Below are positions 1 through 13,995 of a stretch of 28,179 bases of DNA, in pieces; position 1 is the stretch's first letter, and each line of letters opens with the position of its first letter. Made by a program: the position numbers and the translations under genes. Where the stretch lies: the IMG/VR virus record IMGVR_UViG_2778261154_000006, positions 1 through 28,179 of that record. One strand, written 5' to 3'. Below the pieces are notes generated by a model that made no database searches, had not been told where the DNA came from, and was given only the letters and a program-made list of their open reading frames with translations. The stretch comes from a virus. Taxonomy: Duplodnaviria > Heunggongvirae > Uroviricota > Caudoviricetes.

Positions 1-72
1 AATCGGTGGAGCTGCATGACAAGGTCATCGGGCATTATCTGAACATAAAACACTATCAGTAAGTTGGAGTCA

Positions 73-321
73 TTACCACGGTAACGCACCAAATGTTTTA
101 CCTTTTATTCGAGCCAAACCTGTAAGCGCATATAACTTATTATCGTCAAAATTCATCACATAAGGATTACCATCAAGACACTGTAATTGAACCTCATCAG
201 TATTAAATGGCCATACCCCATTGAAACTCTCACGTTCAATAGTTTTAAAAGGCATTGCGACGGCGGAAAAAGAAAACATAGATAAAAAAGTAACTAATAG
301 TTGAACCTTTTTTACTTTCAT
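73..321 (-). CDS. small secreted/periplasmic protein of unknown function (predicted N-terminal signal peptide)
   Basis: 82-aa ORF. N-terminus MKVKKVQLLVTFLSMFSFSAVA has a basic n-region, hydrophobic core and an AxA-type cleavage site. Low GC relative to the phage body. Starts 30 bp downstream of the preceding minus-strand gene. Confidence 0.45.
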   Translation of the reverse strand: MKVKKVQLLVTFLSMFSFSAVAMPFKTIERESFNGVWPFNTDEVQLQCLDGNPYVMNFDDNKLYALTGLARIKGKTFGALPW

Positions 322-350
322 ATCATTACCTCAATTTAGCTCAAGTAAGA

Positions 351-998
351 TTACAAATTAAAAAACACCCTAGAAATGGCGCCGCCTACCAAAACCCCTA
401 CGCAGATAAAGAATATTATTTCTTTTGGATAAAGTCGGAGTAATTCTGAAGCACGAAGTCGGACTTCTGGTAAGGTCGAACTCTCTGTGTGGCTTGATGC
501 CGATTGTTGCTCTAACCACGACAATGCAGACTGTAACTGAGAACGAGTAAGATCGTTTAAACGTCCTGTACCGAAATTGATATGGCAATACCGCAGAAGT
601 TTTTGTCGAAGTCCACAGTCTTCACTGTTACGTAGTAATAAACTTACAAGAGTCTTACAGGCATCATGATCTTTACATCGCTCAAGCATTGCATGCAGAA
701 AACTCTCCGCTGTTTTATATTGATTTACTGTCATATCATCAATACCAGCTACACCAATCTCCGCATGTACTTTTTGCCAAATAATAAACGCTTCAGTATT
801 GCTAGCTTCTGCAATAGCAGCAACCAAGCTATTTAGCTCCTTACGCTGAGCCTTAAGCAAAGGGCGATCATCATCATTATTCGAAGGGATTGCGATATTG
901 ACGGTATGAGAACCATCATATCGCTCTATCTGAATATTCTTTTCGTGAAAATCACGCCCAGCAACGCGATTGTTTGAACCGTTTGAGTTGACGGCCAT
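351..998 (-). CDS. tail-anchored membrane protein of unknown function; N-terminus carries the peptide motif found at the C-termini of the two adjacent HTH proteins
   Basis: 215-aa ORF. C-terminal hydrophobic segment IIFFICVGVLVGGAISRVFF. GGAGGT Shine-Dalgarno 3 nt upstream of the ATG. N-terminal residues 5-19 (NGSNNRVAGRDFHEK) match the C-terminal tails of the ORFs at 1014-1418 and 1445-1870. Confidence 0.5.
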   Translation of the reverse strand: MAVNSNGSNNRVAGRDFHEKNIQIERYDGSHTVNIAIPSNNDDDRPLLKAQRKELNSLVAAIAEASNTEAFIIWQKVHAEIGVAGIDDMTVNQYKTAESFLHAMLERCKDHDACKTLVSLLLRNSEDCGLRQKLLRYCHINFGTGRLNDLTRSQLQSALSWLEQQSASSHTESSTLPEVRLRASELLRLYPKEIIFFICVGVLVGGAISRVFFNL

Positions 999-3281: not shown

Positions 3282-3704
3282 ATGATTAATCCGACACTCA
3301 CCCTCAAAGATAAAGCCCTTGCGGGCGCAATGTTTTTACGCAACTACGCCGCAATGATGGCTGACACTGACAACCCGATTATGGTGCTGTCAGTGGAGCC
3401 TCACCTTATCGCCGCAGACGCAATTGAACAGGTGGTACAGGAAAACACCTGTCTGAGAAATCAGCTTGCCACCCTTCAGACAGCAGCTGACCCGGCAAAG
3501 GAAAGTGCTGAACACACCTGCCACACCACATTCATCAAAGGGACCCGCGTATGTCTGAAAAACAGTCCGCAGCAACGCGGAACGGTCGTTGACACCCGCA
3601 CCAGTAGCCCCGCCATTGACCGGGTTTTCGTCCGTTTCGATTCCCCCTTCGAGGAAGACCGCCGGGTAAAGACCAGAAACCTGGAAATAACCCCCGACAA
3701 ATGA
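3282..3704 (+). CDS. hypothetical early protein
   Basis: 140-aa ORF with AAGGG SD upstream. Preceded by a 97-bp intergenic region containing the palindrome GTTAATTAAC. Confidence 0.45.
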   Translation: MINPTLTLKDKALAGAMFLRNYAAMMADTDNPIMVLSVEPHLIAADAIEQVVQENTCLRNQLATLQTAADPAKESAEHTCHTTFIKGTRVCLKNSPQQRGTVVDTRTSSPAIDRVFVRFDSPFEEDRRVKTRNLEITPDK

Positions 3705-3958
3705 AGCTGATTATCCCTGCGCGACACCGCAAAAACCGGATGAAGCCAGGGGGAAAGCCGGAGCGGGCAGCAAGGGCGGCATACCGTCGCCTGCTGAAGG
3801 GGGACCGGTCACACGTGCGACGGCTGGAGCGGGTACCGCCCGCCCGCGTCATCAACGTCATGTACCGTTACCGGCTGTTAAGTCTGGACGAAGGCCGGAC
3901 ATGGGTACTGCTTAACCATAACGAATACGTGAAGAGGATAAGACGATGTTACAGATGA
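3701..3958 (+). CDS. hypothetical small basic protein
   Basis: 85-aa ORF, start overlapping the upstream stop. Arg/Lys-rich. GC-rich region, so weak support. Confidence 0.3.
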   Translation: MKLIIPARHRKNRMKPGGKPERAARAAYRRLLKGDRSHVRRLERVPPARVINVMYRYRLLSLDEGRTWVLLNHNEYVKRIRRCYR

Positions 3959-6844: not shown

Positions 6845-7072
6845 ATGGCAAACCGCAAACAACAGCGCGCATACGCTGCGCGTCGTCACATCCGGACTGA
6901 AATCAACCGCAGACTTTTCCGCGCCTTCCGCGTCGCGCATATCATGCACATCAATATGCTGCATGAGCGCAGTCACGCACTGTCAAACACCTATTCCGCC
7001 GCTGTTTTCAGCTATCTGGCGGATGATCTGCGCGGGCTGCGGGACCTCATTAACCAGCACTACCACCACTAA
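6845..7072 (+). CDS. hypothetical small basic protein
   Basis: 75-aa ORF with GAGG 7-8 nt upstream. Lies after the structured non-coding region. Weak support. Confidence 0.3.
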   Translation: MANRKQQRAYAARRHIRTEINRRLFRAFRVAHIMHINMLHERSHALSNTYSAAVFSYLADDLRGLRDLINQHYHH

Positions 7073-7543: not shown

Positions 7544-7548
7544 GCGGA

Positions 7549-10065
7549 ATGAGCCATCACAACACACACCTGGCGTACCCGTGGAATGCCCCGCTGCCGG
7601 TTATTGATCCTGAGACGTTCGGCAGAGCGTTACCGCAGAAGCCAACCGCATTACAACGGGCAATCCGGGACTACCTCACCGAAGACATTCGCACTGAGGC
7701 CCGGCTGGATGAAGAAACCGTGGTCTTCCTGACAACCACGGACAAAGGCAAACAAATTAATTCACACCTTCACCGGGACGAAGAGCGGCAGACAAGGCTG
7801 GATAAGCTGGCACGACACAGACGCGAAAATCCGCCAACGGAGGTATCGGAAGCGATAGCCGAACTTCGCGCCCTGCCACCGTTTCTTGCCAGCGTGCTGA
7901 TCCGCGATCTGGCACGCCTGAACCGGAAACAGCAAAGCGCCCGCAGCAAAGGTGTAAAAAACAATAGCGCATACGTGGCCGATAACTTCGTTCGCCGTGG
8001 ACTGCGCGCGCGCCTGAAACGTATCGAACGGGTTAACGACCGCTTTGCAACGCCGGCATTCAAATCCAGTGTCATACGCCATCGCCTTGAAGAGCTGCTC
8101 ATGCTGCCGCAACTCAGCCGCGACAAGATCCAGCGCATCGCCACACTGACTGCGCAGTTCTTTACCGCAGAATTTGAACGCATATGTGATGAAGTTCCTG
8201 AACAGACCGGAAAGAATAATGACAGCCCGGTTATCTGGCTGCTGGCCTACCAGAAGATGGCACGCATAGCCTTAACGCTGGGCGTGATCCCGCCATACTG
8301 GCCGGAACTCGAAATCAGGCACAACCGACGCACACCGCCGGACCCTGAACTGATACCGGGTGCGGTACTGCGCATCACCTGCGCGACCTGGTGGAACAAC
8401 CAGTTACGCCACATCGCCGATCTCTGGCGGGAGGAGTTACTGCGTGCCGCCGGCAGAGTGTCACGTAAACAATCCCCTTATATCAGCCATGAATCACTAC
8501 TGGAGTTTCGCGAGAAGCGCCAGCGCACCCGTGATTTTCTCAAAAGCTGGGATATTGAAAACGAAGACGGCGAGCGCCTGAGTCTGGAGGAAGTGTACTG
8601 GGCGGGCCCGGGGAATCCACGCAACCGCCGCAATGAAATGATGGTCTGCGTCAGAGGGATGGAGATGGTAGCCGAATTGCGGGGTGACGTCGCATTCTTC
8701 ATCACGGTAACAGCCCCTTCCCGCTTTCACAGCGTGAACGAAGACGGCAGCCTGAACCCGAAATACAACGGTGCCACTGTACGCGATACCAGTGATTATC
8801 TGGTTTACGACTTCTTCGCAGCCGTAAGAAAAAAAATCAAAAAAGAGGGGCTGGGCTGGTACGGCGTGCGAACCGCTGAGCCACACCATGACGGCACGCC
8901 ACACTGGCATATGCTGGTATTCACGTCCCCTGAGAACGCAGAGCACATCATCGAAATTATGCGCGACGCAGCGATTAAATCAGATCGCCACGAACTGGGG
9001 GACGATATTTCGCCGCGCTTTGAATGCGAGAAGATAGATCCGGAAAAAGGGTCGCCGGCAAGCTATATCGCAACCTATATCGGTAAGAACCTGGACGCCA
9101 GCGCCTTCCACAACAATGATCCGAAAACCGGAAAACCTTACGTCGATAAGGAATCCGGGAAAACCATGGCGGAAACCGTGGAGAACGCCATTGCATGGGC
9201 GAGCCTTCACCGCATACGTCAGTTCCAGTTTTTCGGCATTCCGCCCCGCCAGGTGTGGCGTGAACTCCGCCGCCTTGCAAGCCAGATGGGGCGCAACCCG
9301 GCATCACCGAAGCGACTCGATCATGGCGATATTGACGCCATTATGGCCGCCGCAGACGTAGGGTGTTTTGCCACCTACATCATGAAACAGGGTGGCGTGC
9401 TTATTCCACGCAACCAGTATCTGGTCCGCACCGCATACAAAACCGCAGACGAAGCTAATGACTACGGCGAATTCCCGCAGCGCATCTACGGAATTTGCGC
9501 CCCGTCACTCGGGGAACGGTACACCATCTGCACCCATCCGGATGAGTGGAAACTGGTCAGAAAAGAATCTGACGCCGACAACAGCACGGACGAGGGTTTT
9601 GACCTTCGGGGCGGCTTCGCCGCACCTTGGACTCGTGGCAATAACTGTCCCGGTGACGAAAAAACAGCCGGAACCGGCACAGAAAACAGGCAGCGTGGGT
9701 CGCGGCTGACGCTTCCGGAAAGCGGCCTGGCGCACTGGTTGCAGACGTTAACCCGTCACGAGCGGAAACAGCTCATCAGACAGCTTAAAAATCAGCCGCC
9801 CACCACGGATACCGGACAAAATAACACCAGACCAGCATCAGACACCCCTGTCAGGGTGGAGGTTGTCGTGCCTGTCGACACCACGACCATCGCACAAATC
9901 ACCCGCGAACTCGACGCGCTGGGTGTGCAGCTGCCTGACGCAGCCATTATTTCCGTGAGTAACGGTGCCCGCGTTCGCCCGGGCGACGGGCGTATCGCGT
10001 ACTGGAGCGCCACAACCCGCCGTATCGTCATCACACAGGAGTCGTCAGCGGAGGTAAGATCATGA
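7549..10065 (+). CDS. A: rolling-circle replication initiation endonuclease, P2 gpA family (HUH nuclease)
   Basis: 838-aa ORF. HUH motif in GTPHWHMLVF, and a Y-x-x-x-Y pair in SYIATYIGKNLD as in the gpA active site. Size and position match P2 A. Confidence 0.88.
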   Translation: MSHHNTHLAYPWNAPLPVIDPETFGRALPQKPTALQRAIRDYLTEDIRTEARLDEETVVFLTTTDKGKQINSHLHRDEERQTRLDKLARHRRENPPTEVSEAIAELRALPPFLASVLIRDLARLNRKQQSARSKGVKNNSAYVADNFVRRGLRARLKRIERVNDRFATPAFKSSVIRHRLEELLMLPQLSRDKIQRIATLTAQFFTAEFERICDEVPEQTGKNNDSPVIWLLAYQKMARIALTLGVIPPYWPELEIRHNRRTPPDPELIPGAVLRITCATWWNNQLRHIADLWREELLRAAGRVSRKQSPYISHESLLEFREKRQRTRDFLKSWDIENEDGERLSLEEVYWAGPGNPRNRRNEMMVCVRGMEMVAELRGDVAFFITVTAPSRFHSVNEDGSLNPKYNGATVRDTSDYLVYDFFAAVRKKIKKEGLGWYGVRTAEPHHDGTPHWHMLVFTSPENAEHIIEIMRDAAIKSDRHELGDDISPRFECEKIDPEKGSPASYIATYIGKNLDASAFHNNDPKTGKPYVDKESGKTMAETVENAIAWASLHRIRQFQFFGIPPRQVWRELRRLASQMGRNPASPKRLDHGDIDAIMAAADVGCFATYIMKQGGVLIPRNQYLVRTAYKTADEANDYGEFPQRIYGICAPSLGERYTICTHPDEWKLVRKESDADNSTDEGFDLRGGFAAPWTRGNNCPGDEKTAGTGTENRQRGSRLTLPESGLAHWLQTLTRHERKQLIRQLKNQPPTTDTGQNNTRPASDTPVRVEVVVPVDTTTIAQITRELDALGVQLPDAAIISVSNGARVRPGDGRIAYWSATTRRIVITQESSAEVRS

Positions 10066-10493
10066 CGCGATTTCACTGCACCATGCAGCGTCAGCAGTTC
10101 GACGCCGTTATGCGCCAGCGCACGCCAGCCATGACACTGAGAGGCGTAGCCACAAGACCACAGCCCGGGGACGAACTGGAAATCACGGTGGCCAGCCCCG
10201 ATCGCACCACCACAACCACCATCACCGACATACTTAACAGGCGACCGGGCAGTGAATATCAGAGCTGGACCATTGCCGTTCGCCCACGCCGTTCGCCGGA
10301 AGAACCGGAGCCGCTCACCCCGGCCGGAAAAATCATGCAGAAGTACCACGAAGAGCAGGCCCGCAAACACAATGTCGCGCTGGCCAGAACACTGACTGCC
10401 GTCAATCGCAAGGCCGCACTGGCGCGAAGGGTCTTTTCATCGCAGCACCCTTCATTCGCCAGACCGGCACAACACAGGAGAGATCCACAATGA
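10062..10493 (+). CDS. hypothetical protein
   Basis: 143-aa ORF whose start overlaps the A stop. No confident motif. Confidence 0.4.
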   Translation: MTRFHCTMQRQQFDAVMRQRTPAMTLRGVATRPQPGDELEITVASPDRTTTTTITDILNRRPGSEYQSWTIAVRPRRSPEEPEPLTPAGKIMQKYHEEQARKHNVALARTLTAVNRKAALARRVFSSQHPSFARPAQHRRDPQ

Positions 10494-10738
10494 GAGAGCA
10501 ATTACCAGACACCGTGCCAGTACAGGAAATCAAAGAAAATATCAGGCAACAACTTCACGGATTTTATATTACTTATGATTTGTGGCTGAAAAACGGAGCA
10601 AATCCAGACGGAATATTTTCGCGAAACTGTGGTTTATGCGCCAGCCTCTGGGATTATCTCGAATTAACGGGTGCTGATAAAGAAGCCGCACTGGAGCTAT
10701 TGCACATTGATTTCAGAAATGCCGGGCGAACCGCATAG
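10490..10738 (+). CDS. hypothetical small protein in a lower-GC patch (accessory gene at the P2 tin/old-equivalent position)
   Basis: 82-aa ORF with ATGA start/stop overlap. Visibly AT-richer than flanking phage DNA. Confidence 0.4.
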   Translation: MREQLPDTVPVQEIKENIRQQLHGFYITYDLWLKNGANPDGIFSRNCGLCASLWDYLELTGADKEAALELLHIDFRNAGRTA

Positions 10739-10793
10739 CGGTGAGTCTGTCAGGGCGAGGAAGCGGAAGATCCACCGCCCCACAGAATGGCAC

Positions 10794-11069
10794 TTACGCG
10801 CCATCACTGAGCAGAATATCCAGTGCCATTTGCCTTTCGTCTGGTTTAAGGCGCTGGAGCAATGCTTTAACGACACCATCAGTTTGCAGGTCACTGGGTG
10901 AAATCACGCGAAGATCGGAAAGATTGAGCGAAAAACGCATATTACAGTCAGAATTAGTGCAGGTGCAATAAACTACCGCCAGCGTTTTTGCGTCATCCTG
11001 CCATGCAGTTTTGCGTATAGCCGCCCGGCAGTGACACGCCGGACATTCAATTTTCATCACACCCGCCAT
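10794..11069 (-). CDS. Ogr/Delta-family zinc-finger late-gene transcriptional activator (putative)
   Basis: 91-aa ORF. ECPACHC...YCTCTNSDCNMRF gives a C-x2-C...C-x4-C arrangement with spacing like P2 Ogr (CPLCQH...CQNVNCSATF, recalled from memory). Confidence 0.55.
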   Translation of the reverse strand: MAGVMKIECPACHCRAAIRKTAWQDDAKTLAVVYCTCTNSDCNMRFSLNLSDLRVISPSDLQTDGVVKALLQRLKPDERQMALDILLSDGA

Positions 11070-11119
11070 ACCCCCCCCACAATCTGACCGGTTGCAGGGG
11101 TAATATAGTCTTTTTCGGG

Positions 11120-12175
11120 TTATTTTTCATCAGCCAGCGCAGACACCACATTTTCCACATCTTCCAGCGTAAAATTAAGGTGTAACGACGGGGGGATTTC
11201 GGGATCGCTGTTCACAGCCTGCATGAATTTACGGCAGACAGGTGTCACTTCATCCCGTCCATAGGTTGTCCTTGCCTTATCGGGATCGCCAAGTCCGCTC
11301 GCATTTTGCGGGATAATACCGGCAAGACCAGCCGGAAAGCGGTGCGCCGTAAGAACATCCTGAGCGCTGATATTCTTCACATTTGAAAACTCATCTTTTT
11401 GCTGAATATCCCCAACCGGAATAATTTTAATCCCGTCCGGTTGCCCTTTTGGGATACTGATAAACATGTTACGGAAATTCCCAAGCCCGTTACCGCTCTC
11501 TATTTTTTTACGTATAGCTTCTTCAGCCTCAACAGACATATTCGGGTCGGACGCGTACATGATGAACCCCATATGCGCACCGTTGTGATAGTAGCGACGT
11601 CTGAAAATGGTCGCCTCACTGTTCAGTAACGCTGAATGAATACCACCGATATAATCAGGCAGTCCATAAATCTGCTGTCGCGGATCATGCATACGTAAAA
11701 ACACAACATCAGACGGCGAATAGACCAGCGGCTCGCCCTCCTGTAACACGATAAAATCAAGTTGCTTGCTGCGACGCAGATACAAAGACGGTAATGGTGC
11801 CAGCGCCACCACCCGTCCCCACCCGTTACGGACCTTCAGAATGGCCACATCACCAAACAGCAGGTAGTCAAAGACAGCCATTTCCATCTGATCGGTCGTC
11901 AGTCCACCCCCCTGGTAGCTGGCACACACCATATTTTTGCGTGCATACAGTACGCCGCCATGCTGGGCGTTAAGGTTCGGCAACTGCGCGAGCGCAAGTC
12001 TGTCTATTGGTAGTGTCCAGTAGTTGTAGCTACCGTTATACCAGACGTTGATGTATTCCGTGCCGGTAGTCAGTATCGGTTCCGGCTCCCCAAAAGTGAT
12101 AATATTGCCGCGTCCGGGAGTAAAATTTTCTGTCTGTGCCCGTTTACGCAGGCGTGCGCTTTTACGTTTACTCAT
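11120..12175 (-). CDS. Q: portal protein, P2 gpQ family
   Basis: Leftward gene directly downstream of the terminase with ATGA overlap at 12172-12175. About 351 aa from this start, close to P2 Q. The track ORF extends to 12196, but the ATG at 12175 is translationally coupled to the P stop. Confidence 0.8.
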   Translation of the reverse strand: MSKRKSARLRKRAQTENFTPGRGNIITFGEPEPILTTGTEYINVWYNGSYNYWTLPIDRLALAQLPNLNAQHGGVLYARKNMVCASYQGGGLTTDQMEMAVFDYLLFGDVAILKVRNGWGRVVALAPLPSLYLRRSKQLDFIVLQEGEPLVYSPSDVVFLRMHDPRQQIYGLPDYIGGIHSALLNSEATIFRRRYYHNGAHMGFIMYASDPNMSVEAEEAIRKKIESGNGLGNFRNMFISIPKGQPDGIKIIPVGDIQQKDEFSNVKNISAQDVLTAHRFPAGLAGIIPQNASGLGDPDKARTTYGRDEVTPVCRKFMQAVNSDPEIPPSLHLNFTLEDVENVVSALADEK

Positions 12176-13995
12176 GCAGCCTTCCCGAATGCCCACACCG
12201 AGGGGCGGTCATATTCATAGTCGAGCGGTTCATTACAGACCGCGTGCGATATGGCAAAAAATACGTCCGCGTGACCGGTCGTTTCGCTGCGTTCGGCGGC
12301 GAACGTCATTGCGTTCTGACTGGCAGTCATTACACGGCGGATGGCCATAAATGCCAGCGGGATATCGGCACGTTCTTTTGTCACCTCATCAACCGCATCT
12401 TTCACCCACTGGATACGTCGCCGCTCAATGAGGTCAATCATCTTAAGCACCAGTTTATTTTTATTATCAACACTGTAGTTAATCCCCATCACCTCACGCG
12501 GTGCGGAGCGTACCAGTTGATCATAAACACCCCGGCCAATACCCGTGATATCCACCCCGATATGCGTAAACCGGTAGCGTTTCATTAATTCTTCAATCTG
12601 CTTAACCTGCCAGGTGAAGTTAAGCCCCACCCACTGGTAGACAGCCAGCACGCGAAATTTTTCTTCAGGCTCAACAGGCGGGGCCACAATAACAAATGTT
12701 GAGTTATCACCCGTTCGTGACGGATCAAAACCACCCCACACCTCACGATTACCAAAAGGCCGTAATGCGGAGGGGTCGAAGTCCTGCCAGATGCCGAACT
12801 CAACCTCACATTTTTCAAGGTCTGAGAATTTAAATACTGTGTCGCGGGAGTCAGTGAACTCACACATGTACAGCATGGCAAACGCCGTGGCGCTGTAGCG
12901 GTTACGCAGCTTCTCAATGTTAACTCTGGCACTGAGTCCCTTAGCGCACGCATCCTCCATTGTGATGACATAGCGCCAGATCCCGTCAGGGCAGACCTGT
13001 CCACCTTTACGCAATTCCTTGCTGGTCGGGAACTCCGCCGCCTTACGTTTCGGATCGTCGCCCTTCCATTCATCCCCTGTCCACAGCCTGTAAGCCTGGT
13101 GCGTTTTAGCGCTGGGGGTTGAAAAATAGGTAATACGGAATTCGTCATGCGTCGCCATCGCTGACGCCACTTCATGCAGGCGGGCAAATTTCGGTATCCA
13201 GAAGACCTCATCCCCGTACAGGTCGCCACTGTAGGACTGCGCCGTATTGGGATTGGTCGCCAGAAAACGCAGTATCGCACCATTGCTGAGGCGAATCGGG
13301 TTGCCTTTAAGCTCGACACCAAAGAATTGCTGCGCAATACTGAGAATATAGAAACGGAAAACTTCCGCCTGGGGTTTACTGGCGGAAAAGAATATCTGAT
13401 TCTTGCCCGTGAGAACGGCCTTTTCAAACCCTTCCCATGCAAAATAGTAGGTAAATCCTTCCTGTCGCCCTTTCAGAATGAAGCGGAACAGTTCGTCGCC
13501 GTGCTCACGCACATATTGCTGATATTCAAACAGATGACCATTCGCTTTTTCATCAAATATTTCTTTTGTCAGTCCGCCGACATCATTTTTACGTAGTCGC
13601 TTCCTTTTTTTACCACCTTCGTCATTCCCTTCTTCACTGCTACCCTGTCGGCCATCATTGACCACCACGCCGGTATTGACCATCGCCCGGATCTCTTCCA
13701 TCCGTTCAGCATGTTTGTTCTTCTGCGCCATCAGCCTGACGTGCTGGGATATCAGGAAGCGCAGCTCTTCAAGCTCAAGCTCGCTTTTACCATCCTTGCA
13801 GGTCAGTCGTTCCACTCGCCGGGCGACAGCCACTTCCACCGACTCGGCTGGTAACATTTCATTCCATTGCCCCCGGACAGCCCAGTTATAAACGGTACGC
13901 ACAGGAAGCCCCAGCGTGGCCGCTATCTCTTTTGGTGTACTGAATTTCAGATACAGGGCGCGGGCAGCGTCCCTGACTTCTTCGGTATATTTCAT
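12172..13995 (-). CDS. P: terminase large (ATPase) subunit, P2 gpP family
   Basis: Long leftward ORF divergent from the capsid operon. N-terminal HTH-like segment after MKYTEE. About 607 aa from the ATG at 13995. The track ORF extends to 14190; the start is uncertain. Confidence 0.8.
   Translation of the reverse strand: MKYTEEVRDAARALYLKFSTPKEIAATLGLPVRTVYNWAVRGQWNEMLPAESVEVAVARRVERLTCKDGKSELELEELRFLISQHVRLMAQKNKHAERMEEIRAMVNTGVVVNDGRQGSSEEGNDEGGKKRKRLRKNDVGGLTKEIFDEKANGHLFEYQQYVREHGDELFRFILKGRQEGFTYYFAWEGFEKAVLTGKNQIFFSASKPQAEVFRFYILSIAQQFFGVELKGNPIRLSNGAILRFLATNPNTAQSYSGDLYGDEVFWIPKFARLHEVASAMATHDEFRITYFSTPSAKTHQAYRLWTGDEWKGDDPKRKAAEFPTSKELRKGGQVCPDGIWRYVITMEDACAKGLSARVNIEKLRNRYSATAFAMLYMCEFTDSRDTVFKFSDLEKCEVEFGIWQDFDPSALRPFGNREVWGGFDPSRTGDNSTFVIVAPPVEPEEKFRVLAVYQWVGLNFTWQVKQIEELMKRYRFTHIGVDITGIGRGVYDQLVRSAPREVMGINYSVDNKNKLVLKMIDLIERRRIQWVKDAVDEVTKERADIPLAFMAIRRVMTASQNAMTFAAERSETTGHADVFFAISHAVCNEPLDYEYDRPSVWAFGKAA

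What the first reader, a model, noticed from the sequence alone, without database searches (positions are those of the whole stretch)
10062..10738. Variable-cargo position after the replication gene (P2 tin/old-equivalent) carries two small unknown genes, one in a low-GC patch
In P2-like prophages the interval between A and the cos/Q end is a known hotspot for accessory anti-phage genes (tin, old and others). Here it holds a 143-aa and an 82-aa ORF, and the second is clearly AT-richer than its surroundings, which suggests horizontal acquisition.
Basis: partly seen in the sequence, partly recalled or inferred. Interest (0 to 1): 0.4.

Follow-up and report, generated by a model that had tools for sequence, protein, structure and literature searches.

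The report
Near-empty cargo slot after replication gene
The two small genes lie at the already-described variable "cargo" site of a P2-like E. coli prophage, but one is a conserved partner of the replication gene and the other is a cut-off leftover of a gene borrowed from a lambda-like phage, so this copy of the site is nearly empty and ordinary.

Summary
Both ORFs are at the stated coordinates (10062-10493, 143 aa; 10490-10738, 82 aa). ORF2 is AT-richer: GC 43.8% against 60% for ORF1.

The interval is the published gpA-gpQ hotspot of P2-like phages. Among 20 related loci the stretch after ORF1 runs from 0.63 to 4.0 kb with unrelated gene sets.

The two ORFs are not two cargo genes.

- **ORF1** follows the replication gene A through an ATGA overlap in every relative that carries it. 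It is under purifying selection (dN/dS about 0.1-0.4). It is an orphan, very basic protein confined to this E. coli prophage clade. It holds the position that Orf91 holds in P2, but homology to Orf91 was not detectable.
- **ORF2** is a chimera. Window 10526-10726 is 96% identical to a lambdoid nin-region gene, which explains the low GC. It stops after codon 79, so it lacks two of the five helices of its ~105-aa family domain.

The stop lies at a deletion junction (10726-10728). Compared with sister prophages, that deletion removed 2.1-3.4 kb, including a RosmerTA-like HTH-M78 + PIN pair.

No known defence model hits anything in the window's slot. This is a decayed allele of a known hotspot, so interest is low. 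ORF1's function remains unknown.

The parts
7549..10065 (+). Replication initiator gene A (838 aa). It forms the left flank of the hotspot. Its 3' part (about 9595 onward) is inherited as a block with ORF1.
   Evidence: Pfam Phage_GPA 3.8e-105 and phrog_91. Annotated 'replication endonuclease' in L001. L002 and L014-type A proteins are only 59-60% identical overall, while ORF1 is 92-100% identical. The local DNA match between window and L017 starts at 9595.
9611..9648 (+). Probable origin of replication (nick region) inside gene A.
   Evidence: 32 of 38 bases are identical to the P2 segment that spans the annotated ori nick site. It lies inside the stretch 9500-9668, which is about 90% conserved in other E. 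coli prophages whose flanking DNA gives no megablast match.
10062..10493 (+). ORF1, 143 aa, pI 11.3. A clade-conserved orphan protein translationally coupled to A (ATGA overlap). It has a small N-terminal alpha/beta region and a long basic C-terminal helix (residues 87-127).
   Evidence: Full-length match to phrog_14984, 1.4e-84. No Pfam, NCBIfam or PADLOC hit. 34 homologue clusters; every one that carries a source name is E. coli. Only 3 representatives among 1.84 billion proteins. Synteny in all 28 related loci that include the end of A. dN/dS 0.08-0.41. AF2 mean pLDDT 64.8, with only the helix confident.
10490..10738 (+). ORF2, 82 aa, pI 4.9. A 3'-truncated chimeric remnant. Codons 1 to about 12 are of unidentified origin (shared only with the L002/L017-type sister prophages), codons about 13-79 come from a lambdoid nin-region gene, and the last three codons plus the stop come from the far side of a deletion.
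   Evidence: Partial matches to phrog_6418 and phrog_2510. Full-length relatives are 103-210 aa. The protein alignment diverges after G79. AF2 of the 94% identical full-length relative shows 5 core helices, of which the window copy keeps 3.
10526..10726 (+). Segment acquired from a lambdoid prophage. This is the low-GC patch.
   Evidence: 193 of 201 bases are identical to L033 6007-6207, a gene lying between replication genes and hok/rusA/Q in an E. coli lambdoid prophage. That region has GC 47%.
10726..10728 (.). Deletion junction with a 2-bp 'GC' microhomology (10726-10727).
   Evidence: Left homology with L002/L017 ends at ...GCCGGGC. Right homology resumes at GCGAACCGC..., which lies 3,368 bp (L002, with IS600) or 2,101 bp (L017, without IS) further on in the relatives.
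10739..10793 (.). 55-bp spacer between the convergent ORF2 and ogr-like genes (GC 64%). It is part of the conserved right flank of the slot.
   Evidence: Identical in L002 downstream of its PIN gene. No terminator-like or Rfam feature found.
10794..11069 (-). Ogr/Delta-like zinc-finger gene (91 aa). It lies on the right flank of the slot, next to the portal gene.
   Evidence: Pfam Ogr_Delta 5.4e-05 (below the gathering score) and phrog_603 3.6e-24. Annotated as such in RefSeq.
11120..12196 (-). Portal gene (gpQ equivalent). It marks the right boundary of the gpA-gpQ hotspot.
   Evidence: Pfam Phage_portal 1e-15. RefSeq annotates 'phage portal protein'.

Best explanation
This is the known gpA-gpQ accessory-gene hotspot of a P2-like (Peduoviridae, P88-related) E. 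coli prophage, caught in a decayed and almost empty state.

ORF1 is not cargo. It is a clade-fixed gene read together with the rolling-circle initiator A by translational coupling, and it is inherited as a block with the origin and the 3' end of A. I infer, without direct evidence, that this very basic protein works with A or the origin during lytic replication, for example as a DNA- or RNA-binding or adaptor subunit. In this it would resemble P2 Orf91 in position only.

The slot proper begins at ORF1's stop codon. In an ancestor, a gene from the nin region of a lambdoid prophage was recombined in and fused in frame behind about 12 codons that do not match the lambdoid gene. In this lineage that gene then decayed in three ways:
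- a TGG-to-TAG nonsense mutation in L017-type relatives;
- an additional IS600 insertion in L002-type relatives;
- in the window, a 2.1-kb deletion from codon 80 to the conserved right flank.

The window's deletion also removed a RosmerTA-like HTH-M78 antitoxin plus PIN toxin pair. What is left of ORF2 is probably a non-functional 82-aa product.
For: Shown: the hotspot.
- Interval contents differ completely among relatives. They include RmrA-like + PIN, TumE + HVO_A0114, MarR-like, DUF7446, Ead/Ea22 and ClpX-zinc-finger genes. Lengths run from 0.63 to 4.0 kb, and the window's is the shortest of 20 loci.
- The locus is published as a hotspot.

Shown: ORF1 is fixed in this clade.
- A 4-bp overlap with A in all 28 related loci that include the end of A.
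- Matches in 67 of 5426 complete E. coli genomes, and every listed row lies under 'replication endonuclease'.
- dN/dS 0.08-0.41.
- A strong Shine-Dalgarno sequence.
- In L002, L014 and L016-18, A is about 60% identical overall while ORF1 is 92-100% identical. The shared block starts near 9595, just upstream of the P2-like nick region at 9611-9648.

Shown: ORF2 is a remnant.
- 96% DNA identity to a lambdoid gene over 10526-10726, with unrelated sequence on both sides.
- The family core is about 105 aa with nearly invariant P75, F76, H93, R98, W101 and V102, all lying beyond the window's break point.
- The AF2 model of the full-length relative has pLDDT 85.6 and helices at 2-24, 39-50, 54-67, 80-88 and 96-109. 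The window copy ends at the equivalent of residue 69.
- Three different lesions are seen in the three alleles found in P2-like context.

Shown: the deletion.
- Window 10731-11125 is 99.2% identical to L002 DNA lying 3.4 kb beyond the left break point.

Shown: no defence content here.
- PADLOC, Pfam and NCBIfam give no hits for either ORF.
Against: - ORF1's function is pure inference. No domain, fold or solved relative was found.
- Co-inheritance of ORF1 with ori and the 3' end of A could reflect adjacency alone.
- ORF1 is absent from P88, P2 and 80 gpA loci of other species. It is therefore dispensable for gpA-type replication in general and could be an old, fixed accessory gene.
- The 82-aa ORF2 keeps its Shine-Dalgarno sequence, its coupling and every residue that is invariant in the first 79 positions of the family.
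- The same 82-aa form (99% identical) is recorded on 55 contigs, including Shigella. Residual or new activity is therefore not excluded.
- The direction of the 2.1-kb difference (deletion here, rather than insertion in relatives) is inferred from the truncation of ORF2, not observed.
Confidence: 0.8

Rival explanations
1. One reading: both ORFs are horizontally acquired accessory genes, possibly anti-phage, equivalent to tin/old.
For: The locus is the right one. Sister prophages do carry a defence-like pair at this position: PADLOC RmrA 3.2e-35 plus a PIN protein. ORF2 is demonstrably foreign DNA.
Against: ORF1 is syntenic and coupled to A in every relative and is under purifying selection. 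ORF2 is truncated. Neither ORF hits PADLOC. Both sit in the early lytic operon with no promoter-like site on their strand, so they should be silent in the lysogen. P2 old/tin have their own transcript starts.
Confidence: 0.07
2. ORF1 is a highly diverged DUF3850/ASCH-type protein, a true orthologue of P2 Orf91, possibly an RNA- or nucleotide-binding PUA-like domain.
For: The two genes have the same position and the same ATGA coupling to A. P2 Orf91 matches DUF3850 at 1.1e-16 and ASCH at 1.8e-10. By eye, three short motifs line up in order (FD.V, GD.L.I, ITD), and the predicted beta-alpha-beta-beta-alpha-beta order of ORF1 would be compatible with that fold.
Confidence: 0.15
3. The 82-aa ORF2 is a functional shortened protein with a new or retained function, not a pseudogene.
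For: It has an intact start, Shine-Dalgarno sequence and coupling. All family-invariant residues up to G79 are retained. The same form is found on 55 contigs and in 2 complete genomes and 4 IMG/VR contigs.
Against: It lacks helices 4 and 5 and six nearly invariant residues. The sister alleles carry independent inactivating lesions, a nonsense codon and an IS600 insertion, which argues that this lineage does not select for the gene. Its spread can be explained by clonal inheritance with the prophage.
Confidence: 0.1
4. ORF1 is a chance open frame in GC-rich DNA and not a gene.
For: The region has 60% GC and also carries a 192-aa antisense open frame at 9792-10370.
Against: dN/dS is well below 1 in 41 of 41 computable pairs. 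The frame, start and Shine-Dalgarno sequence are conserved down to 60% identity. It matches a PHROG family over its full length.
Confidence: 0.02

Closest known systems
P2-like gpA-gpQ anti-phage hotspot (old/tin locus of P2; Rousset et al. 2022, PMC9122126)
   Same: Same chromosomal position, between the replication endonuclease gene and the portal gene. Same behaviour: unrelated gene sets in related prophages, including a defence-like TA pair in sister prophages.
   Different: This allele carries no recognisable defence gene. Its remaining ORFs are co-directional and translationally coupled with A, not read from their own promoter like old/tin. An Ogr/Delta-like gene lies between the slot and the portal gene.
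P2 Orf91 (DUF3850/ASCH domain protein immediately after A)
   Same: It is the first gene after A, with an identical ATGA overlap. In P2-like contigs only its residues 1-75 stay conserved and the tail varies, so it too marks the left edge of the hotspot.
   Different: No detectable sequence or fold similarity to ORF1. ORF1 has an additional long basic C-terminal helix.
phrog_6418 / phrog_2510 family of small helical phage proteins (lambdoid nin-region genes of 131-210 aa; ~103-108 aa proteins of Akiravirus, Phapecoctavirus and Vequintavirinae phages; P88 gp20)
   Same: ORF2 residues about 13-79 are 94% identical to the E. coli M605 lambdoid member, and 35-48% identical to members from virulent phages. 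A distant member also sits in the A-Q interval of P88.
   Different: The window copy lacks the C-terminal ~25 residues of the core (LN..PF and N..R.AWV motifs, helices 4-5) and has a foreign N-terminal extension of about 10-12 residues. The family itself has no known function and no solved structural relative.
RosmerTA (RmrA HTH-ImmA/M78 antitoxin plus variable toxin; PMC10440598)
   Same: Sister prophages (L002, L016, L017) carry an RmrA-like protein (PADLOC 3.2e-35; HTH_3 plus Peptidase_M78) followed by a PIN-domain protein in this slot.
   Different: It is absent from the window. It lies inside the 2.1-3.4 kb segment that the window lacks.

Membership tests
P2-like gpA-gpQ hotspot | Lies between the replication endonuclease (gpA) gene and the portal (gpQ) gene | tested here: met
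   A at 7549-10065 (Phage_GPA 3.8e-105). Portal at 11120-12196 (Phage_portal 1e-15). Definition taken from PMC9122126.
P2-like gpA-gpQ hotspot | Gene content varies between otherwise related prophages | tested here: met
   Across 20 loci the interval is 0.63-4.0 kb with unrelated ORF sets.
P2-like gpA-gpQ hotspot | This allele carries a recognisable or candidate anti-phage system | tested here: not met
   PADLOC gives 0 families for ORF1, ORF2 and the ogr-like protein at E up to 1. There are also no Pfam or NCBIfam domains.
P2 Tin / Old | Sequence similarity to Tin, or to the Old ATPase-TOPRIM nuclease; a gene read from its own promoter in the lysogen | tested here: not met
   No PADLOC or Pfam hit. 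The ORFs are 143 and 82 aa, against 253 aa for Tin and 586 aa for Old. No promoter-like site on the + strand in 9900-11300.
DUF3850 / ASCH (P2 Orf91) | Match to Pfam PF12961 or PF04266 | tested here: not met
   None of 27 ORF1 family members matches at E up to 10. P2 Orf91 itself matches at 1.1e-16. hhalign probability 0.1%. The shuffle test is not significant.
DUF3850 / ASCH (P2 Orf91) | PUA-like beta-barrel fold | tested here: inconclusive
DUF3850 / ASCH (P2 Orf91) | First gene after A, overlapping its stop codon | tested here: met
   ATGA overlap in both P2 and the window.
phrog_14984 (ORF1 family) | Full-length profile match | tested here: met
   1.4e-84, residues 1-143 on profile positions 1-143 of 143.
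phrog_6418 / phrog_2510 (ORF2 family) | Profile match to the family | tested here: met
   2.4e-18 and 1.1e-12, covering residues 15-80. 126 homologues were found with the family profile.
phrog_6418 / phrog_2510 (ORF2 family) | Complete ~105-aa five-helix core, including the nearly invariant P75, F76, H93, R98, W101 and V102 | tested here: not met
   The alignment ends at G79 of the window protein, which equals residue 69 of P0038. Helices 80-88 and 96-109 are missing.
RosmerTA | RmrA-type HTH-M78 antitoxin with an adjacent toxin | tested here: not met
   Present in L002 but inside the segment that the window lacks.

The most novel reading that the evidence does not exclude
ORF1 (phrog_14984) may be an undescribed partner of the rolling-circle initiator gpA. 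It is a 16-kDa protein with pI 11.3, found only in one E. coli prophage clade. It is always translated from an ATGA overlap with A and is inherited as a block with the origin and the C-terminal part of A. It could be a new origin-binding, helicase-recruiting or initiator-regulating factor. Alternatively it could be a lytic-phase counter-defence protein tied to replication.
Probability: 0.3. Interest if true: 0.35.

Novelty: already known. Interest (0 to 1): 0.12.

Why it matters
Mostly it does not matter. The hotspot is published, and this allele holds no candidate system to mine.

It gives two small, useful points.
1. It is a clean worked example of how such slots turn over. A gene was captured from a lambdoid prophage, then inactivated stepwise (nonsense codon, IS600, deletion), and a RosmerTA-like module was lost. 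That bears on the 'swap versus decay' question raised for P2/P4 hotspots (bioRxiv 10.64898/2026.02.27.708500).
2. It shows that the first gene after A should be treated as part of the replication module, not as cargo, when hotspot boundaries are drawn in this clade.

Tried and rejected
**Domain and defence searches on both ORFs**
- Pfam, NCBIfam and PADLOC found nothing.
- PDB sequence searches with both family profiles found nothing below E = 0.1.
- Per-member Pfam scanning of 27 ORF1 homologues at E up to 10 gave only scattered noise.

**Structure and fold searches**
- AF2 of ORF1 was of low confidence apart from one helix.
- AF2 of the full-length ORF2 relative was confident.
- Foldseek against BFVD returned only uncharacterised phage proteins.
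- The afdb50 library was unavailable.

**Searches for more distant ORF1 relatives**
- A profile search of 1.84 billion representatives found only 3 true relatives.
- tblastn of ORF1 against 50,697 phage records found no match.

**Test of ORF1 = P2 Orf91 (DUF3850)**
- hhalign and an HMM-versus-shuffle test were both negative.
- An attempt to build a diverse DUF3850 profile from IMG/VR returned only P2 relatives at 92% identity or higher.
- None of the 80 species-level gpA loci had a usable homologue after A.

**Other checks**
- The P2 cos 19-mer matches window 10754 with 6 mismatches. That is no better than six other places in the window, so it was rejected as evidence.
- Rfam found nothing meaningful.
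- The supplement of PMC9122126 does not list the RefSeq protein accessions.
Full report
**Observation**

The two ORFs are exactly where the finding puts them: 10062-10493 (+, 143 aa) and 10490-10738 (+, 82 aa). They follow an 838-aa gene at 7549-10065 that matches Pfam Phage_GPA at 3.8e-105.

Each gene junction is an ATGA stop/start overlap. Each start has a GGAGG or AGGAG box 9-10 nt upstream.

Downstream lie an Ogr/Delta-like zinc-finger gene (10794-11069, -), the portal gene (11120-12196, -) and the large terminase gene.

The composition claim holds.

| Region | GC | GC3 |
|---|---|---|
| ORF2 | 43.8% | 41% |
| ORF1 | 60.0% | 65% |
| Gene A | 56.8% | 64% |
| Whole window | 52.5% | - |

ORF2 sits at the 7.5th percentile of 249-bp windows. 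The contrast is sharp against upstream DNA and mild against the downstream genes (49-50%).

The window is 99.9% identical over this stretch to a prophage of E. coli FDAARGOS_943. RefSeq annotates the same two CDSs there as hypothetical proteins.

**Is this a variable cargo position?**

Yes, and it is already known. Rousset et al. defined the region between gpA and gpQ of P2-like prophages as a hotspot, with 1,650 arrangements in 18,150 E. coli loci. In P2 itself it holds old and tin (PMC9122126).

I collected relatives from complete E. coli genomes, from contigs that encode ORF1 homologues and from IMG/VR. Across 20 loci, the stretch from the end of ORF1 to the portal gene ranges from 0.63 to 4.0 kb and carries unrelated genes:
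- an HTH-M78 protein plus a PIN protein, with or without IS600;
- TumE plus HVO_A0114, with a MarR-like gene;
- DUF7446 and Ead/Ea22-like genes;
- a ClpX-type zinc-finger gene;
- several ORFs with no domain hit.

The window has the shortest interval of all 20 loci.

**ORF1 is not cargo**

In all 28 related loci that include the end of A, ORF1 starts 4 bp before A's stop codon. This holds even in loci whose portal protein is only 33-34% identical to the window's.

A blastn search finds the A-end/ORF1 junction in 67 of 5426 complete E. coli genomes. Every listed row lies under 'replication endonuclease'.

Pairwise dN/dS over 125 codons is 0.08-0.41. The frame is therefore translated and under constraint.

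The family is extremely narrow:
- 34 clusters at 59% identity or higher, and every one that carries a source name is E. coli;
- three true representatives among 1.84 billion proteins in a profile search;
- no match in 50,697 phage records;
- no match in 80 gpA loci from other species, nor in P2, nor in the P88-like phages that have the closest A proteins, at about 51% identity.

ORF1 travels with the end of A. In L002, L014 and L016-18 the A protein is only about 60% identical overall, while ORF1 is 92-100% identical. The DNA block shared with L017 begins near 9595. That is just upstream of 9611-9648, which matches the P2 sequence around the annotated ori nick at 32 of 38 bases.

From this I infer that ORF1 belongs to the replication module. 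I did not show it. This is the weakest step of the account, because adjacency alone could produce the same pattern.

**Relation of ORF1 to P2 Orf91**

P2 has a gene in the same position with the same ATGA overlap: orf91, a DUF3850/ASCH protein.

I suspected homology from three collinear motifs seen by eye. The tests did not support it:
- hhalign probability 0.1%;
- an ORF1 N-domain HMM scores Orf91 at -0.9 bits, a score reached by 375 of 2000 shuffles;
- no ORF1 family member hits DUF3850 or ASCH.

ORF1 is therefore a positional analogue of Orf91. Membership in that family is not established.

**ORF2 is a truncated chimera**

ORF2 matches phrog_6418 and phrog_2510, but only over its residues 15-80.

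Full-length relatives are longer:
- 103-108 aa in virulent phages (Akira, phiWec188, UPEC06);
- 131-210 aa in E. coli prophages.

In E. coli these longer genes sit in lambdoid prophages, between the replication genes and hok, rem, DUF968, rusA and Q. That is the nin-type region.

Window 10526-10726 is 96% identical (193 of 201 bases) to one such gene. The surrounding lambdoid region has 47% GC, which accounts for the low-GC patch.

Upstream of 10526 the sequences are unrelated. ORF2's first 10-12 codons therefore do not come from the lambdoid gene. They are shared only with the sister prophages, and the lambdoid body is fused to them in frame.

Downstream, the protein leaves the family alignment after G79. 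The family profile has nearly invariant residues beyond that point (P75, F76, H93, R98, W101, V102 in P0038 numbering).

The AF2 model of the 94% identical full-length relative is confident, with pLDDT 85.6 and pTM 0.78. It shows five core helices, and the window copy keeps three.

**The break is a deletion junction**

Window 10731-11125 is 99.2% identical to DNA of the CFSAN029787-type prophage (L002) that lies 3,368 bp beyond the point where the left-hand homology ends. In the IS-free version (L017) the gap is 2,101 bp. The two homologies overlap by a 2-bp 'GC' at 10726-10727.

The missing segment holds the 3' end of ORF2, a partition-gene remnant and a two-gene module:
- a 381-aa HTH_3 + Peptidase_M78 protein that hits PADLOC RmrA models at 3.2e-35;
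- a 172-aa PIN-domain protein.

This looks like a RosmerTA-type toxin-antitoxin/defence pair (PMC10440598).

ORF2 is damaged in the sister alleles too. L017 has TGG-to-TAG at the conserved Trp codon, with the reading frame recognisable beyond it. L002 and L016 have IS600 inserted after about codon 100. Three different lesions in the three P2-context alleles argue that the gene is not maintained in this lineage.

The 82-aa form recurs in 2 complete genomes, 4 IMG/VR contigs and a protein cluster seen on 55 contigs. That spread is consistent with clonal inheritance of the prophage.

**Expression logic**

P2 old and tin are read from their own transcript starts and act in the lysogen. Here both ORFs are co-oriented and translationally coupled with the early gene A. 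The consensus scan finds no promoter-like site on the + strand between 9900 and 11300. No Rfam family matches the region.

If that is correct, both ORFs are expressed with the lytic early operon. That does not fit a lysogenic-conversion defence role.

**Verdict**

- The position is a real and already-published cargo hotspot.
- ORF2's DNA is indeed foreign.
- ORF1 is a clade-fixed gene of the replication module.
- ORF2 is a probable pseudogene fragment.
- The slot in this window has been emptied by a deletion that removed a defence-like pair present in sister prophages.

Nothing here is a new kind of system. The one open item is the function of ORF1, an orphan basic protein tied to gpA.

Noticed in passing
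window 9500-9668 (core 9611-9648): This ~170-bp stretch inside gene A is about 90% identical in dozens of E. coli prophages whose flanking A sequence gives no megablast match. Its core matches the P2 sequence around the annotated ori nick site at 32 of 38 bases. It is probably the origin of replication, overlapping the conserved GFAAPWTRGNNCPG coding segment.
   Followed up: partly
window ~9529-9595: There is a recombination break point inside gene A. In L002, L014 and L016-18 the A protein is only 59-60% identical overall, but the last ~500 bp of A plus ORF1 (and ORF2) are 92-100% identical. The initiator gene is mosaic, and the 3' end, ori and ORF1 move as one block.
   Followed up: partly
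L002 7849-9502; also L016 and L017: Sister prophages carry a 381-aa HTH + M78 peptidase protein (PADLOC RmrA 3.2e-35) followed by a 172-aa PIN protein in this slot. This is a RosmerTA-like pair with a PIN toxin. In L002 and L016 an IS600 lies next to it.
   Followed up: partly
L007 7191-7939: Another relative carries TumE (PF20126) plus an HVO_A0114 winged-helix protein, and a MarR-like gene, in the same slot. PADLOC gives only weak hits.
   Followed up: no
L039 (phage P88) about 7544-7882, gp20: A distant member of the ORF2 family (HMM E = 6.6e-4) sits in the A-Q interval of phage P88, and another in PhiR44_2. The family therefore recurs at this position in P88-like phages as well as in lambdoid nin regions and in the early regions of virulent phages.
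   Followed up: no
L041-L099 (P2-like IMG/VR contigs): In 56 of 59 P2-like contigs only residues 1-75 of Orf91 (the DUF3850 domain) match P2, and the C-terminal tail differs. The left edge of the P2 hotspot therefore seems to lie inside the 3' end of orf91.
   Followed up: no
window 6845-7072 and 3701-3958: A 75-aa ORF corresponds to genes annotated 'derepression protein' (PF25738) in relatives and in P88. An 85-aa ORF corresponds to a 'ParE family toxin-like protein' in the early region.
   Followed up: no
window 1-700: This is the lowest-GC part of the window, at 34-40% in 249-bp windows. It is lower than ORF2 and lies at the integrase-proximal end of the prophage. It is a stronger candidate for foreign DNA than the finding's patch.
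   Followed up: no
window 10754-10772: GGCGAGGAAGCGGAAGATC shares 13 of 19 bases with the P2 cos cohesive end, including the first seven. Six other sites in the window match equally well, so this is not evidence for cos. The cos site of this prophage was not located.
   Followed up: yes
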